The position numbers and the translations under genes were made by a program. A stretch of 64,000 nt of DNA from assembly GCA_951406725.2 (NCBI GenBank), contig OX597820.1:125984001-126048000 (forward strand), given 5' to 3'. Of this stretch, positions 1 to 55,220 are shown piece after piece (the stretch's first letter is position 1; each line of letters begins with the position of its first letter). The DNA is from Octopus vulgaris. Taxonomy: Eukaryota. The notes under the pieces were generated by a model. It did not search any database and was not told where the DNA came from. It saw only the letters and a program-made list of their open reading frames with translations.

Positions 1-415
1 GCATCAACAAATTGAATTTTTCCCTCTTACTTCACTTGTTTGTCCTTAACATTTGTTTTCTCGTTGACTCATTTCTGGCATGTTACTTTCACCACCACAT
101 ACGTCAAAGACAACACAGCGATAAAATGATGTGTGAAGAATGCAGGAAGAATATTAACAAAGCAAACAGTATTTCAATAGTCTGGAGTTTAGTTAAGTAA
201 AGTATTAATATTTATAAATTGATTAAACCCCGAAGATAAGTAATTTTCGTTTTGCTATACAGAATATAAACCTACTTCTGATTGTAATAAGAAAATACAG
301 AGCACAGGCGGAATAAATGACCGTTAAAACAAAGCTATGCATACATACGTGCCTGCGCATACATATTAAAACTGGCTTGTATTAGTCAGTCCCTGCTATT
401 CTCTACGTGTATGTA

Positions 416-46172: not shown

Positions 46173-47715
46173 GGAAAATGGAGACAAACTCACAAGCTGT
46201 TATTTCAACCATTCATATCATCTATATCAACTTATCACCGATATAGTTTCGATTGATGCAGTAGTATAAATCCGAGAGGAAGAATAATGTCCAAAAGTGC
46301 ATCAGTCACAGCGGGGAAGAGATTATAAAAAAAGAATGCTCATCAATAAATCTTTTTTACGGATGTAAGAAACTACAATATATAATTGCTGTCAAAGCGA
46401 CGAAAATATTTTGACAAATTAAATTCAAATGTTGAAGTGAATCTAACGGATTTTGTGTGTTTCTTAAGTGGCTTATAATCACCTTCCACGATGCAATTGT
46501 TTTCGTTCCAGCACACGATCTCAGATCAGGTAACTTGCTATGCAAGTACATCTTTCTCTATCTGGTCAGAAAACTAGACCTGATAGAGAAAAACTAAAGT
46601 TATTTTTGAATTTAGCCGGTAAAATCACTTAAGAATTCGTTGAAATATTTCAAGGCAGTAGACAAAAAAAAAAATTGGAGGTTGGTCAGTGTTATCATTA
46701 TAAATAGCATTGTTATTACAGTTATTAAGCGAAACCCATTTACCATTAAAATATTGTTGTTATGCGAGGATATACTTTGTAGAATGTTATTAGAGTTGCA
46801 GAAACCAGTTTGGTTATGATGTGCGTTGAGAATGGAATGGTTCCTTGAATTTTGGGGAAAGTTCATTTCCATGGATTGACGAAACAGGTAAGGAAGGTTA
46901 TTTTTAATTTGTTTTCCATATGAAATAACCAAATAGTTTTACTAAGGTCTTGTAATTTATAGGGAGATTTTTCATTAAAAAATTCCTGTAGATTTTTTTA
47001 TTTTATTTTTCAGAAAAAGAGTGGGGAAGTATAGTTACCTCTTTTAGAGTGATTATTTTAAAATTTACCAAATTAGGTTGTTGGCTATTTCCATATAAGC
47101 AATTATTATCTGGATTATTACTTACGGAAGAAACATTGTAAGTATTATTATTATCATTATTATTATTATTATTATTACTATTATTATTATTACTATAACT
47201 ACTGTCAACCAGATTATTAGAGGTTAAACCAAGATTAAGAGGGTTATAATACTTAAGTTGCTTCTTATATCCTGCTGTATATAAGGCCGAATTCGAGAAA
47301 TCAATGTTATTATTGGCTGATAATTTTGAAATTCTAAGCTATATGTTTTTAACCACTTCTTTTGTTGATATATTTTAGATCGGTTGAATGCTTATGGTAT
47401 GGGAAATATAAAGCTTTATTTAATTTGAGTGTAATGTGAAAGAAATTAACCTTCGTTCTATCATCATTTTGTAATTTTTGATTAGATATATTCCGGAGGT
47501 AAGAAGATAATCGTCGTTATATAAACCACCGAGAATATATGGAAATTGGTCAGCCATTTCTGATAGAATATAAATACCGTCCCAATCAGAAATTTGAGCT
47601 GAGTCACTAGACCCCATACGTATATCAAAGCGGTCAGGTCGATCTTTACGAACCCAAAATTTATTATCAAATTTGATAATAGATTTTCTGGCCGCTAAAA
47701 ACATTAATTTCATCC
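46169..47715 (-). mobile_element. Penelope-like retroelement relic (RT core, linker, decayed GIY-YIG region, 3' HHR remnant)
   Basis: FDIRMGSSDSAQISD..GIYIL...GGLYNDD matches the PLE RT FDVTMGSxDGAExC...GLYRDD. Also NFP..SRNHSILN...ISSHNNNIL, and an HHR-like stem gactgatgca/tgcatcaatc-GAAACTATATC at 46307-46240. Confidence 0.8.
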
Positions 47716-48241: not shown

Positions 48242-48274
<33 letters not shown>

Positions 48275-48279
<5 letters not shown>

Positions 48280-48997
48280 GCAAATATATGTCACAATTAT
48301 TCGGTAGCCATGATAAAAGTTCAGTTCTTGAATTTCGAATCATGTCCATATGTGGCTAAATATTTGTTACGTTTTTGGTCCCCTCGAGATTACAGATAGG
48401 ACTTACTTTCTATATTGTGTCCACATGCAAGCTTTTATCTCTCTATACTATTTACTTATATTTCTTATATAATTTTATATATGTTTTTACATATTTATAT
48501 AGATATTGGCTTTTCTGTATTTTGCCTTTAGCCCTGTTTTTTCTTGTGCATGTGCGTATATTGACGTGTGTACGAACCATTTTTTGTGCGTGCGTGTATG
48601 TGTGTGCGAGCGTGTATGCGAGTATGTATATATTTTTTTGGCGAATGTGTGGGTGTGTATGTGTGTATTTCAAGTGAGGGTGGATGAGTATATACATATA
48701 GGCGCATGTACGTGGGTGTGCGGGCGTGCATGTGTATGTGTGGACATGCGCGCTTACGCGATAACAATGGAATTTTTACTCCCTCCCCTTACTTAGTGGT
48801 TATTTGAATAGCTCTTTTGTCTTAATAACAGTCAATCACACAGTAATTCCTCCTTGTTTTAACGGTCATTTTCATAGCATTATTTTCGATGGCGCGATAA
48901 CTGAGGAGATGCTGGCGTGGGTATCCGCCCCGACATCCGAAACTCGGAGTTTTATCATGGCTACCGAATAATTGTCACATATTATATTTACAGATAA
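48275..48997 (+). mobile_element. Non-coding ~700-bp element with terminal inverted repeats and 3' hammerhead
   Basis: IR 48289-48318 / 48950-48979 (29/30), HHR at 48896-48956, flanked by TA-rich sequence. Confidence 0.85.
48896..48956 (+). ncRNA. Type I hammerhead ribozyme candidate with intact core boxes
   Basis: gataa-CTGAGGA-gatg(ctggcgtgggtatccgccccga)catc-c-GAA-ACT(cgg)AGT-T-ttatc. The triplet is GUU, with one extra C before GAA. Confidence 0.75.
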
Positions 48998-50814
48998 ATT
49001 CCTCTATTTGCATAAGATCGAGTTCTCTTTCCTGCTTTTGTTGTCTTACCATTTTGTACCAATATATATATATATCGTAAAAAATATATTTGTCAACTAA
49101 ATGCAATGATCCCATAGAGGACGATATTACTCATGTTTTAGCCACGGAAGGCATCTCCTCCAGCTGGCTAATGGCACACTGTCTGTGTCCGATTAGTATT
49201 TGCGAGGGGAGGTCATCGTACTGTTGTGGGTTCAATTCTTGGACAGGACGCTTCATTTCACTTTGTTGCAGCATATTCAGCTGAAGGTTAATATCTTAAA
49301 ACAGGTGCAGATCATTCTCTCCCTTCAGATGTATCATTCTGCTTGAGTCATCGGATCAAGGAGTACTGGAGTGGTGAGCGATTCTCTGTCGACTCGTGAC
49401 TCCACAGATATTGCAAAAGCAAAGTGCAGCTTCCCAAGCCAAACTCACTCACGGGTAATGGTTGGTTCTCTGTTTTTGTGTTTGGGTTCGGGTTATATGC
49501 ACATGGACACACACAAACACAAGTACATACAAACATATATCTTTATCTTTCTTCGCTTTTTACCTTTTACATGTTTCAGTCAGTAGACTACGGACATACT
49601 GGAGCACCGCCTTGACGAAGTTGCAGTCGATTCAATTGACCCCGGTACTTACATTATTGCATAAAATGACAAAATGAAATTACTTTTGATTATTCACTTG
49701 ACCTACTAGAAATTACAGTCAACTCACCCTGAAATCTTTGAATAGTGCAGTCCTGTGTGTATTAGGTAAATATTTGGAGATTATAGTGAGAACACTTTTC
49801 ATCATAGACTTGTTCAATAAAAATTGAGCAAGTCTAGTGTTCTTAAAAGATAGTAATACGCAGAAAACCATAACTATTTGGACTACACACAATAGAGTAA
49901 ATCGACGGCAGTCGATGAAATAAACCACTTGAACGGCTTGCTTTAATTATTGACCCTTAAAAACGAAAGGCAAAGTTGGCTTCTACATGATTTGAACTCA
50001 GAAGATAAAAATCGGGACAAATGACACTCTAACGATTCTGCTAATTGACTGTCTTCGTTTGAACTTTAATAAGAAAGCTTCAGAACGCAATGGAAACCGG
50101 CACAGTTTTTCATGTTCAACCTGGGGAACAATGGTATCCATAATGAACATTTAGGGTCCTACATCTCTGATCTTATGAAAGCAGAATAATATTTAACCAA
50201 AAGGGTAGCCTCTAAGCTTGAAAGGTAATGCATTGCACTACTTGTGCAGCCTAAGATGCAGGCGGTGGTGTTGATCTGGTCGACAAATTAAGTCTACGGC
50301 ACAACAGAGAGTGACCGGCTCTTGGAGAAGCAAATTATATGGTGTTAACTCACAAGGATTTGAACGACAGAATTCTAAATTACGAACAATGTTTCACAAG
50401 GTGATAAGCTGAGAAATCGAAATGGGAACCGGATGGTATCAACAAAGCAAGCATCTTTAACGCACAACTACGAATTTATCCATAAACGGATGATGCAATT
50501 TACGTATGTCGCAATATGTTTTAAGTTCAAATGCTATGAAGGTCGATTTTATTTTCGTCCTTTAATACTCTATAAAATAACTAGCTGTCAATTACTGAGA
50601 GTGAACAAATCAATTACTTTGCTGCCCACTTGTACTGTGCCAACGATATATCATAGACAATAACAATGCTACATTTTCATGAAAGTAATTTATCTTCATA
50701 ACAAACCAGATACACATATGTATATAATATATACGTGTGTGTATACACATATATTCACAGATATAAACCTACCTTTGTATTTAAACTTTACATACATACA
50801 TACATACATATATG

Positions 50815-51099: not shown

Positions 51100-51680
51100 C
51101 TCCAAATCGGATATTTCCGAGTGGTTAGGTGTTAATCTGAGGACATGTATCGAGAGTGATAAAATTCAAATATCCAGTCAACATCATTGTGTTTGGAGTG
51201 ATCATTAGTGATCAAAATCTACACGGAGGTCTACATCAAGTGGCTGGAGGAGGTACTGCTGCTCTGGATCAAGAAGGTGGCTGCTGTAAGGTCCACCAAA
51301 GCACCATACCACAAAAGCAGTAGAACCCAGTCATGGCTGTCATATAATTTCTGCGACAACATCACCCCTAATATCTGGTCACCTAACTCTCAAAACTGCA
51401 ACTCCCTTGGTTATTATGTGTGGGCCGCTGTTGAGCGAGATACCAACAAAACTCCTTGTAACACCAAAGATGAACTGAAGGCAAGGATTATGGCAACATT
51501 CACCAACTTAAGAAACCACCCAGAAGAGTAGCAGGCAATTTTATAGATTGAATTTACTTTTAAGTATTTCAGGATATTTTTATGTAATTTTGGTAACTAT
51601 ATCTGTTAAGGTGTGTTGTCAGTGTTATTTTCATTTTCGCGTAATATTTTGAAGACAGTTTATTCACCGCACCTTGTGTA
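51100..51680 (+). mobile_element. Tc1/mariner (maT/DD37D-like) transposase relic
   Basis: APYHKSSRTQSWL...NIWSPNSQNCNSLGYYVWAAVER...DELKARI resembles WPPNSPDLNPLDYYVW. The element ends ...caccttgtgTA. Confidence 0.8.
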
Positions 51681-52018: not shown

Positions 52019-53771
52019 GTTAGTTAGTTAGTTAGTTAGTTAATTTGGCTCAAAAGCAAATAGCAAGGCCATGTAGGGGGACATGGAGTTAAGTACAGGG
52101 TGGTGTTCCTGTAAAGAGTTCAGGCCACTTGAGGTCAAGGGAGGCTTTGAACAAAGCGGTCCTCGGCATCTTCACCATCTCGTCTGGCAGCTTGTTCCAC
52201 GGATCCGCAACCCGGACGGAGAAAGCTCCTCTCCTTCGATTGAGATGAAATCGTCGCAGATAGAGCTTTTCGGAATGACCCTGCAGCCGACGCTCTGGAG
52301 CAGGAGTGAAGAACAGCTCTTTCGAGAGGTTACACTTTCCGCTTATGATGCTGTGGGCGAGAATGAGATCACCACGGCGGCAGCGTTTTTCTAGAGAATA
52401 AAGGTCGAGCGTCCTCAGCCTTTCTTCATAGGACAAATTTTTGAGACCATGAACCATGCGGGTAGCCAGCTTCTGGACTCTTTCGAGATGCTGTATGTCT
52501 TTGAGGAGATAAGGAGAAGAGGCTTGAATCCCGTATTCCAATATGGGTTTCACCAGCGTGACATAGAGTGGTAGGAATATGGCTGCTGTGAGCATTCCGA
52601 ATGACCGTCGAATCAAGAACAGAATTCCGCGTGCTTTGTTGGCAGCATGGACGCACTGGGCCGAAGGCGAAAAGGAGGAATCCACCAAGATACCCAGGTC
52701 CTTTACCTGATCGGTCCTCTCCAGCAGCAGACGACCCGGCTCGAAATCAAGTCGAGTTGCAGGAGGAGATCCAACAGGCAGATAACAGCACTTTGACACG
52801 TTCAGACACAGGTCCCATTCGTTAGACCACCTCCAAATTTGGTGGATGCATCGACGAAGATCCTCTATATCACCGCGAGGAGCGACCAGTTTGACATCGT
52901 CGGCAAATAGAAGGGTGTGTTGCGTGAGGTCGTCGGGCAAGTCATTTATGAAGACTAAGAACAATAAGGGCCCAAGCACTGAACCTTGAGGCACGCCACT
53001 GCTTGCACTGGAGACGTCGGACCGCGAACCATTAACTTGGACTTGGAAGGAGCAATCTGAGAGGAAGGCACCAACCCATCGTGCAATATCCGGATGGAAA
53101 CTATATGCATGAAGCTTGACAAGTAATAGGCGGTGGTTTACCGAGTCAAAAGCTTTGGCAAAGTCCAATAAAACGATGTCAACAGCATCACTATCATCGA
53201 GGATGCGCGTCACCAATTCTTCCATCACCAGTAAGTTGGTCAAGCATGATCTCTTCGGCACGAATCCGTGTTGGGAATCATAGATGGAGGCTGTGTTTTG
53301 GAGGTGGAGCATCATACTTTTCTTAAGGATGGTTTCGAACATCTTGCTGATTATTGATGTAAGGGAAACCGGTCGGAAGTTAAGCGGGTCTTCGCGGCTC
53401 CCTTTCTTGAAAATTGGGCAGATTATCGCTGTTCTCCAGTCCGCAGGTATAACGCCTGTCGCCAATGACATATTGAATAGACGTGTTAAGGGCCCGCAGA
53501 TGACCGGAGCCAACGCTTTGATAACCCGTGGGTGTAAGCCGTCAGGGCCGTGACCCTTGTTGACATCGAGGCCTTGAATAACACGTTTGACTTCGTCCCG
53601 CGTGATGACCAATCGAAGCATTGGAGGTACCGATCTATCAAATCGAGGGGGTTCACGACCGTCATCTTGTTTGAAAATAGTTGAAAAAGCCTCGGCAAAT
53701 AATTGACTCTGTTGATAAGGGTCCTCAATCGATACGCCTGTTGAGTCTACCAACGTTGCAATCTGGTTGTT
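52019..53771 (-). mobile_element. 5'-truncated CR1/L2-group LINE with (TAAC)n tail
   Basis: Abrupt GC-rich block containing the RT ORF below, a short 3' UTR and a (TAAC)n tail at 52019-52043. Confidence 0.93.
52089..53753 (-). CDS. Non-LTR retrotransposon reverse transcriptase (CR1-type ORF2, endonuclease truncated), uninterrupted 554 aa
   Basis: GPDGLHP, PIFKKG, NFRPVSLTS, QHGF, LDFAKAFDSV, GVPQGSVLGPLLF, LFADD, KDLG, LERVQ..ATR and RGDLI motifs. Confidence 0.93.
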   Translation of the reverse strand: MVDSTGVSIEDPYQQSQLFAEAFSTIFKQDDGREPPRFDRSVPPMLRLVITRDEVKRVIQGLDVNKGHGPDGLHPRVIKALAPVICGPLTRLFNMSLATGVIPADWRTAIICPIFKKGSREDPLNFRPVSLTSIISKMFETILKKSMMLHLQNTASIYDSQHGFVPKRSCLTNLLVMEELVTRILDDSDAVDIVLLDFAKAFDSVNHRLLLVKLHAYSFHPDIARWVGAFLSDCSFQVQVNGSRSDVSSASSGVPQGSVLGPLLFLVFINDLPDDLTQHTLLFADDVKLVAPRGDIEDLRRCIHQIWRWSNEWDLCLNVSKCCYLPVGSPPATRLDFEPGRLLLERTDQVKDLGILVDSSFSPSAQCVHAANKARGILFLIRRSFGMLTAAIFLPLYVTLVKPILEYGIQASSPYLLKDIQHLERVQKLATRMVHGLKNLSYEERLRTLDLYSLEKRCRRGDLILAHSIISGKCNLSKELFFTPAPERRLQGHSEKLYLRRFHLNRRRGAFSVRVADPWNKLPDEMVKMPRTALFKASLDLKWPELFTGTPPCT

Positions 53772-53811
53772 ATATCATAAAATAGAATCCATGTGAACAT
53801 TTATATGAAAA

Positions 53812-53847
<36 letters not shown>

Positions 53848-54044
53848 CATGTGTATATTTATATTATATATATACATATATAAATTGATGTGTATTTTTC
53901 CCTTGTTTGCAATTAACATGGAATAAATATCTAAATATTTACCAGGGTAGCAAAACGTCGAACAAGTAAAGTTGGCACAATACCTTGTTTTTAAAGGTAG
54001 AAACTCGCGGTTTATGTGAAATATTTTGTATTATATATATATAA

Positions 54045-55214
54045 ATAAATGGAGTTAAACGCAGATGTTATTCAAATTCTTTTACTTCCTCGGTTTGGTG
54101 TTGGCGTATAAATTAAAATTGGTATCGTTTATATCCTTACAACAAGATTTCGTGTCTACATTAGTAAAGGTAGAAAAAGATTGAATAGAATTATTATAGG
54201 TACCTTTCTCTGTATAACCTGCTTTAAGTAAGGCAGAGTTATACAATTCAGCCTTATGATTTATAATGTCAACAGTAGCAGATATCTTAGACAATCTAAA
54301 TGAAATATTCTTAACTAAGTTCCTAGCGATTGCCCTAGACTGATTACTGAATCGGCTAATATACTTAAGATTGGTCGATGGTTTGTGGTAGTGTCTCTGA
54401 AGTCAATTTCAACAGAATTAAGTTTATATCAAGTAACTCTAAAATTAAAAATTCTATATACCAGTGTAAAATTACTTCAGGTACCGATATCTTTTTTTAT
54501 ACAGGTAGCTCTTCTCAGTTATCTAAAAGAATTTATAATCATTACTATAATTTAGGGATATGAATAAACGTAACATTAGAGGACTTAGTAAATTAATTTG
54601 GTATCTAAAAGACTATAATAAACAATTTAATTTAGCCTATTTGATTCTCTCAATTTCGTTCCCTTATGATAAAGGCAAGGAATTTTGTCTTCTCTGTAAT
54701 TCTGAAATATGTCTTTATTCTTTTTTTCTAAAAGTACCCTTGTAAACACGGTTCAATGCTTACCGGCATTGGCAGAAACACACATTTGGTTCATATATGT
54801 GATATCTATCATTGTATATAATTTAAACATTGATTTTCTTCTTTCATTTCACTTTCACTAGATATATCTTTTTTCAAGACTTTAGGGTTTTATTTAATTT
54901 GCATATCGTTCTATACTTCTCATTTATTTGGTTTCTGATTTTTTTCTTTCCTTTACCTGTCCTCTTTCTATAGGCTACCTTTGATGTTATACCTATATAT
55001 TTTTTTTAAAAACACGTAATAGCGTTCAGTTCATCACTTTACTTATCCATCATATTCTGTTAAAATGTCTTATTGACGAGTTTTATTTCTTCATTTGCCT
55101 GAAGCGAAGATTACAGTGTTTTACACCATTTTATTCTTTTGGAATAATACCAATGATATCTTCGAAACATGTGTCGGAAGTAAAAGAATTTGAATTACAC
55201 CTGCGTTTAACTCC

Positions 55215-55220
<6 letters not shown>
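54045..55220. mobile_element. Inverted Penelope-like element: RT-thumb fragment (-), GIY-YIG endonuclease relic (+), 3' hammerhead, 45-bp terminal inverted repeat
   Basis: Minus YHKPSTNLKYISRFSNQSRAIARNLVKNISFRLSKIS...YNSALLKAGY. Plus IYQCKI...FYTGSS...KRIYNH...LSKLIWYLKD...FCLLCNSE. IR 54045-54089/55176-55220 (43/45). Confidence 0.9.
55088..55188 (+). ncRNA. Type I hammerhead motif of the PLE 3' end
   Basis: ttcttcatttgc-CTGAAGC-gaagat...atcttc-GAA-ACATGTGT-C-ggaagtaaaagaa. The triplet is GUC, and A9 is changed to C. Confidence 0.7.

What the first reader, a model, noticed from the sequence alone, without database searches (positions are those of the whole stretch)
48275..48997. Non-coding pseudo-MITE with near-canonical hammerhead; IR again starts at the cleavage site
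Seen: a 30-bp IR (29/30) whose inner edge (48950) is within 2 nt of the predicted GUU^ cut (48951/48952), an intact CUGAGGA/GAAA core, and a TG-rich non-coding interior. The architecture matches 54045-55220 but the sequence is unrelated and there is no ORF. Inference: a non-autonomous PLE derivative that TE annotators would misclassify as a MITE.
Basis: partly seen in the sequence, partly recalled or inferred. Interest (0 to 1): 0.75.

Follow-up and report, generated by a model that had tools for sequence, protein, structure and literature searches.

The report
Truncated Hydra-type Penelope retrotransposon copy
This is the cut-down end of a protein-coding Penelope-like jumping gene, with a predicted self-cutting hammerhead RNA and a short mirror-image copy of its own tail; the layout is already known, and the mirror copy starting at the predicted cut site is likely coincidence, because few sister copies do so.

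Summary
The inverted repeat (32/33 bp) and the hammerhead core are real, and the repeat's inner edge lies 2 nt from the predicted cut. The rest of the reading needs correcting. The element runs on to about 49059, so the right arm is not terminal. The interior holds the last 20 codons of a GIY-YIG endonuclease. Full-length, decayed copies with a reverse transcriptase–endonuclease ORF exist in the genome and carry the Hydra-clade motifs. So this is a 5'-truncated copy of an autonomous Penelope-like element, not a separate non-autonomous family and not a MITE.

Starting at the cut is not a family trait: 2 of 101 mapped arm edges lie there, 3.3 expected. Two regularities are real. 45 of 46 inverted pairs have one short (about +45) and one long (+108) end. 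Inner edges pile up just upstream of the ribozyme and stop at an initiator-like motif. I infer two priming events on uncleaved RNA that run off its 5' end.

The layout is published (PMC8557442), and this scan found it before on other DNA, including this genome. New family of a known kind; low interest.

The parts
48243..48276 (.). (TA)n target microsatellite, left flank
   Evidence: sequence; 99 of 113 outer ends in the family lie within 30 nt of a microsatellite
48275..48318 (-). Short inverted arm: element positions about -2 to +48 relative to the predicted cut (short outer end)
48315..48335 (-). Inverted 21-nt piece of the ORF (positions -1014 to -994), joined to the short arm through TTTT and to the main arm through TTT
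48337..48399 (+). Last 20 codons and stop of the GIY-YIG endonuclease domain; 5' truncation point of the main arm at about 48333
48400..48884 (+). TG-rich 3' UTR / pseudo-LTR, with a private deletion of about 350 nt at 48508/48511
48885..48968 (+). Predicted type I hammerhead: core 48901-48907 and 48939-48942, palindromic helix III 48942-48950, predicted cut 48951/48952
   Evidence: helix III matches published Hydra-clade motifs
48952..49059 (+).
49062..49076 (.). (AT)n right flank; no target-site duplication can be discerned
   Evidence: sequence

Best explanation
This is a decayed, 5'-truncated copy of an autonomous Hydra-type Penelope-like retrotransposon joined head-to-head to a 44-bp inverted copy of its own tail, likely made when both nicked strands of a (TA)n target each primed reverse transcription on the element's RNA. 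Shown: ORF remnant, pseudo-LTR, one-sided tail, full-length relatives, two fixed outer ends (about +45 and +108). Inferred: the GIY-YIG domain nicks both strands; one strand primes at +108 and copies about 1.1 kb back into the ORF; the other primes at about +45, stops after 44 nt, jumps through a TTTT microhomology to the ORF, copies 17 nt more, and the two cDNAs join at TTT. The 350-nt deletion is private to this copy among the loci examined. Family-wide, most templates were likely not cut by the ribozyme, and the short arms likely ran off the RNA's 5' end about 85 nt upstream of the cut. The stop at the cut in this copy is likely chance, or a rare cleaved template.
For: ORF: sister copies carry the GIY-YIG C-terminus directly upstream of the window's left end. 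Copies L163, L167 and L169 run hammerhead-tail-start codon-ORF. The mapping reference gives a monomer of about 3.28 kb with RWK and DKT motifs; a CxCx5C linker is in L029 and CxxC before the conserved E. These are the Hydra diagnostics in PMC8557442 section 11. Pair rule: 45 of 46 inverted pairs have one short and one long end. In a younger sister family, 20 of 20 fetched pairs and the short pairs are also unequal, mostly +42/+109. The two arms of a pair share minor variants at 0.024 per site against 0.0095 (maximum 0.0165) in 500 shuffles. Edges: 36 of 101 lie in -85..-72 (p 1.6e-10 against uniform), 6 in -99..-86, 2 at the cut. In the sister family, none of 67 arms has its edge between -50 and -190. 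In vitro, an anole element nicks and extends both strands, starts at two internal sites and uses mostly uncleaved RNA (PMC11167929).
Against: No tree was built against reference Hydra sequences, so the clade rests on motifs. Pfam gives only a weak GIY-YIG match for the family's domain (E 0.017, below cut-off). Both elements in this window have an arm at the cut followed by an inverted ORF piece, which is more than the family rates predict. In the sister family, 29 of 67 near-cut edges fall at -1..+1 against 15.5 expected (hand tally of the 86 rows, 19 set aside as indels or duplicates), though 17 of the 29 are two recurring microhomology junctions. Shared variants could also come from gene conversion between arms; in the sister family the sharing (0.0071) did not exceed the shuffle maximum (0.0074). 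The anole study found start sites not homologous to the cut DNA, whereas here both ends sit at short AT-rich matches to the target. No RNA-end data support the 5'-end reading.
Confidence: 0.85

Rival explanations
1. Ribozyme-cleaved RNA is a real minority template: the short arm stopped because it ran off the 5' end made by the hammerhead, then jumped to the ORF. This rival concerns only this copy's junction.
For: Edge at -2..0 here and at 0 in the neighbour, both followed by an inverted ORF piece; L055 and L060 also start at the cut; about twofold excess at -1..+1 in family B (hand tally).
Against: No excess in family A: 2 of 101, 7 of 30, 22 of 77 against 23.7 expected (hand tally of the 100 listed of 142 matches, 23 set aside as indels or duplicates). 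The same jump follows arms that end at -71 to -85 (L033, L077, L083, L103, L127). The TTTT microhomology explains this junction on its own.
Confidence: 0.2
2. A distinct non-autonomous family (retrozyme- or SINE-like) that is itself copied in trans.
For: Most copies in the chromosome sample are short stubs without ORF; non-autonomous Penelope derivatives are published (PMC8557442; bioRxiv 10.64898/2026.07.22.740005).
Against: Junctions differ from copy to copy; this copy keeps ORF sequence; its deletion junction had 0 matches in the other loci held; the stubs are mostly solo or inverted, not head-to-tail hammerhead arrays.
Confidence: 0.06
3. One cDNA folds back and self-primes (or an antisense RNA self-primes), so the second arm is copied from the first.
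For: Proposed for rotifer elements with palindromic junctions (PMC3846280); arms share variants; many junctions sit in palindromes.
Against: Arms are not nested: either arm may reach further, and L053 (+82..108 with -56..45) and L276 hardly overlap or do not overlap.
Confidence: 0.12
4. A true MITE with terminal inverted repeats moved by a DDE transposase.
For: Inverted repeat near both ends and TA flanks.
Against: The right arm is internal to the element, arm lengths vary between copies, 45 of 46 pairs have unequal ends, and the sequence is continuous with a reverse transcriptase ORF.
Confidence: 0.01

Closest known systems
Hydra clade of C-terminal endonuclease Penelope-like elements (Craig et al. 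2021, PMC8557442), including Hydra-1_Obim of Octopus bimaculoides and Penelope-13_HM
   Same: Single ORF with C-terminal GIY-YIG; RWK, DKT, CxCx5C, CxxC motifs; (TA)n targets; hammerhead with actc-n-gagt helix III as in Hydra-2_aMil and Penelope-16_HM; inverted 5'-truncated copy; tail on one end only.
   Different: The hammerhead sequence differs from Hydra-1_Obim, so a different family; monomer about 3.28 kb (published ones generally under 3 kb); tail about 60 nt (published 30-40 bp).
Poseidon element PAc of Anolis carolinensis (Frangieh et al. 2024, PMC11167929)
   Same: Two internal start points flanking the tail, both strands extended, uncleaved RNA as the main template.
   Different: Different clade; its start codon lies inside the hammerhead, here it is 218 nt after the cut; its start sites are not homologous to the target.
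Opposite-strand minimal hammerhead pairs of Schistosoma (Cervera and de la Pena 2014, PMC4209133)
   Same: Hammerheads 100-700 bp apart on opposite strands, read there as truncated elements; palindromic helix III predicted to need a dimer.
   Different: Here helices I and II are long, and this copy has only one hammerhead because its inverted arm stops at the cut.
MITEs
   Same: Short, high-copy, inverted repeat near both ends, TA flanks.
   Different: Arms are unequal, variable and not terminal; the partner is a reverse transcriptase.

Membership tests
Penelope-like element (EN+) | Single ORF with reverse transcriptase and GIY-YIG endonuclease | tested here: met
   Decayed full-length copies align along a 727-aa sister ORF at about 29-65% identity; GIY-YIG Pfam match weak, E 0.017
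Penelope-like element (EN+) | Pseudo-LTR from partial tandem, with hammerhead in sense orientation | tested here: met
   L163, L167, L169 have the hammerhead region upstream of the ORF; other copies have it downstream
Penelope-like element (EN+) | 5' truncation, inverted copy, one-sided tail | tested here: met
   45 of 46 pairs
Hydra clade | RWK present, DKG changed to DKT | tested here: met
Hydra clade | CxCx5C linker; CxxC and CxH around the conserved E and N | tested here: met
   CxCx5C in L029 and CxxC in most copies; the H of CxH is present in L014 but is Y in most copies, including the window's
Hydra clade | Insertion into (TA)n | tested here: met
   99 of 113 outer ends near a microsatellite, any dinucleotide or listed tetranucleotide type counted
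Hydra clade | Phylogenetic placement of the reverse transcriptase | not tested
   no reference sequences were loaded
Type I hammerhead ribozyme | CUGANGA, GAAA, UH core with three helices | tested here: met
   40 of 77 arms intact at all core positions, per-position identity like the neighbouring positions, so no sign of selection after insertion
Type I hammerhead ribozyme | Self-cleavage | not testable with these tools
   inactive fold favoured in the monomer
MITE | Fixed terminal inverted repeats | tested here: not met
MITE | Fixed-length target-site duplication | tested here: inconclusive
   ends are buried in microsatellites
MITE | DDE transposase partner | tested here: not met
   the coding sequence continuous with these ends is a reverse transcriptase-endonuclease; no separate transposase search was run
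Non-LTR retrozyme | Head-to-tail tandem units each with a hammerhead, no coding remnant | tested here: not met

The most novel reading that the evidence does not exclude
The thousands of hairpin stubs are a genomic read-out of the Penelope reaction: each insertion uses the two start sites exactly once (one per target strand) on uncleaved RNA from one donor, and the stubs end where the mRNA begins, at an initiator-like YCATT motif just upstream of the hammerhead (-84 in this family, -47 in the young sister family). Transcription starts and the share of ribozyme-cut templates (about 1-2% at most) could then be read from DNA alone.
Probability: 0.4. Interest if true: 0.5.

Novelty: new member of a known kind. 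Interest (0 to 1): 0.22.

Why it matters
For annotation: thousands of such stubs can be mistaken for MITEs, and this one was also given the wrong right boundary. For mechanism: the copy statistics support, from genomic data, the in vitro picture of two internal start sites and an uncleaved template, and they argue against hammerhead cleavage defining insertion ends, which is an open question for these elements. The genome also holds a young Hydra-type family with many open 727-aa frames, a ready system for testing this. The single copy itself is ordinary and likely inactive.

Tried and rejected
Rfam on the whole window (only microsatellite-driven miRNA matches among the 150 of 210 listed) and on 48860-49000: no hammerhead match. 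Protein homologue search with the endonuclease piece, longer proteins only: 3 unnamed hits. Pfam gave nothing for the 727-aa sister ORF. Sequencing runs for the sister family: no RNA holder listed, only contigs; laying four of them showed no splice joint and no molecule ends, and contigs cannot show starts, so neither the transcription-start nor the splice-site reading was tested. Covariation within the family's hammerhead: the alignment of 23 copies showed scattered decay and was not scored further. Two scripts were swamped by (TA)n matches and redone. Earlier findings near this place: none. Rejected: MITE, retrozyme, separate non-autonomous family, an antisense ORF in the tail (only a short chance frame). 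Literature searches turned up no paper stating the one-short-one-long rule as a count or the edge cliff; the library lacks most subscription papers, bioRxiv supplements were not seen, and only one of 59 parts of the Craig supplement was read.

Full report
Observation. The inverted repeat is real: 48286-48318 against 48950-48982, 32 of 33 without gaps. The hammerhead core is at 48901 and 48939 and the predicted cut at 48951/48952, so the repeat's inner edge is 2 nt from the cut. Rfam does not detect the motif. In the monomer an inactive fold (-27.6 kcal/mol) beats the active one (-19.8), and helix III is a palindrome that can pair between two molecules at -11.5. Positions below count from the predicted cut.

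Family and boundaries. The window lies in a 2.8-Gb genome, probably an octopus; that is my inference from size and repeat content and was not tested. A 22-nt tail word occurs 2311 times, control 0. Copies end either at about +45 or at +108, then (TA)n.

It is not non-coding. In 12 of the 15 loci that matched the left anchor, the sequence upstream reads as a GIY-YIG C-terminus. The window keeps its last 20 codons at 48337-48399, preceded by a 21-nt inverted piece of the same ORF and then the inverted tail. Walking upstream gave decayed full-length copies in which hammerhead and tail lead into a start codon at +218 and a reverse transcriptase ORF; the monomer is about 3.28 kb. RWK, DKT, CxCx5C and CxxC motifs and (TA)n targeting are the Hydra-clade diagnostics (PMC8557442 section 11, read whole). 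That paper's supplement (part 2 of 59) lists Hydra-1_Obim, with a different hammerhead, and several Hydra hammerheads with the same helix III palindrome. Clade membership rests on motifs; no tree was built.

Does the repeat start at the cut? I fetched the first 80 distinct sites among the 100 listed of 2311 matches, all on contig C1 (two duplicated pairs and the last four sites left out). Of 130 arms, 101 have inner edges in -120..+2. Two lie at -2..+1, 3.3 expected; 36 lie in -85..-72 (p 1.6e-10 against uniform) and 6 in -99..-86. A pattern that selects arms beginning near the cut gave 142 matches. For the 30 fetched, 7 fall in -2..+1 against 9.2 expected. By hand over the 100 listed, 22 of 77 usable rows against 23.7. 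Among 23 inverted arms on 82 long loci only this copy is within 2 nt. The neighbour at 54045-55220 is a copy of another family with the same layout; its arm does start at the cut, but 0 of 32 arms in 29 sister loci do. Against my reading: in a young sister family 29 of 67 near-cut edges fall at -1..+1 against 15.5 (hand tally), 17 of them two recurring microhomology junctions; the whole filter passed 86 matches against 4752 tail matches. A rare cleaved template is therefore not excluded.

Regularities. 45 of 46 inverted pairs have one short and one long end, in either order. The young family, with many open 727-aa frames, shows the same at +42/+109. Its inner edges stop at -49: none of 67 arms between -50 and -190 (the 20 fetched pairs were chosen for spacing under 800 nt). 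In the unselected list I count by hand 24 pairs spaced at most 129 nt, none at 130-535, and 12 wider. Both cliffs coincide with a YCATT motif whose A is at -84 or -47; calling it initiator-like is from recall, with a precedent in PMC3846280 (passages). Both also lie just upstream of an AG that looks like a 3' splice site, and in Drosophila virilis the intron ends at helix I (PMC4209133, parts 1-2 of 4); an RT stop or microhomology hot spot is a further option. Arms of one pair share minor variants 2.5 times more than shuffled pairs in this family; in the young family the excess is within the shuffle range, though 4 of 7 doubleton variants are within one pair. Arms are not nested, which argues against simple fold-back.

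Mechanism. Inferred: both strands of a (TA)n target are nicked; one primes at +108, the other at about +45; the cDNAs meet by microhomology, sometimes after a jump into the ORF. This agrees with the anole in vitro work: both strands extended, two start sites, uncleaved RNA dominant (PMC11167929, parts 1-2 of 4). In this copy the long cDNA reached -997, and the short one stopped at the TTTT spanning the cut, jumped to a TTTT in the ORF and joined at TTT. The same kind of jump follows arms ending at -71 to -85. The copy is 89-91% identical to the family reference and has a deletion of about 350 nt found in no other locus then held.

Known or new. Inverted truncated copies and a tail on one end are described (PMC8557442, passages; PMC8969392, passages), as are opposite-strand hammerhead pairs. 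Recently active Penelope families are reported in Octopus vulgaris (PMC13282606, passages). Retrozymes (bioRxiv 10.64898/2026.07.22.740005, part 1 of 5) are tandem and non-coding, which this is not. Earlier notes of this scan describe the same structure in this and other genomes; they are unchecked and not counted as support. Four searches showed no paper giving the pair count or the edge cliff.

Verdict. Observation partly confirmed; interpretation partly supported; a new family of a known clade in a known arrangement. Interest 0.22. The pair rule and edge cliff are the only parts worth follow-up.

Noticed in passing
window 53900-55220: The neighbour is a truncated copy of a second Hydra-type family: long inverted arm (it runs to about 53900, not 54045), a 300-nt inverted ORF piece (54084-54390), then a main arm from the endonuclease region to a hammerhead and short tail. 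Its tail word has 540 exact matches.
   Followed up: partly
L136-L160, e.g. L139:1144-3324: A young Hydra-type family with many near-identical open 727-aa frames, partial tandems and 4752 tail matches; likely active; no Pfam match.
   Followed up: partly
window 47495-47704 (-): Fragment of another Penelope-like reverse transcriptase core, 36% identical to the 727-aa protein, 570 nt left of the finding.
   Followed up: no
window 52089-53774 (-): 561-aa open frame with an RVT_1 match (E 6e-31): a LINE reverse transcriptase fragment without stops.
   Followed up: partly
window 51202-51531 (+): Frame resembling the C-terminal part of a Tc1/mariner-type transposase (resemblance recalled, not tested).
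   Followed up: no
G000:C20:54361576: A copy of the young family with four extra A residues exactly at the predicted cut; a single case.
   Followed up: no
G000:C3:8116800 and C3:8116870: Both arms of one pair carry the same deletion in the hammerhead, pointing to one donor RNA or conversion between arms.
   Followed up: no
L125, L129, L131, L132 (contig C17): Several copies share 1.5 kb of upstream flank, so they were spread by segmental duplication; likewise three pairs about 8 kb apart at C1:57.29-57.31 Mb.
   Followed up: no
families A and B, just upstream of helix I: Both have a pyrimidine-rich stretch ending in AG (-75 and -41) that looks like a 3' splice site, as reported for D. virilis Penelope.
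   Followed up: partly
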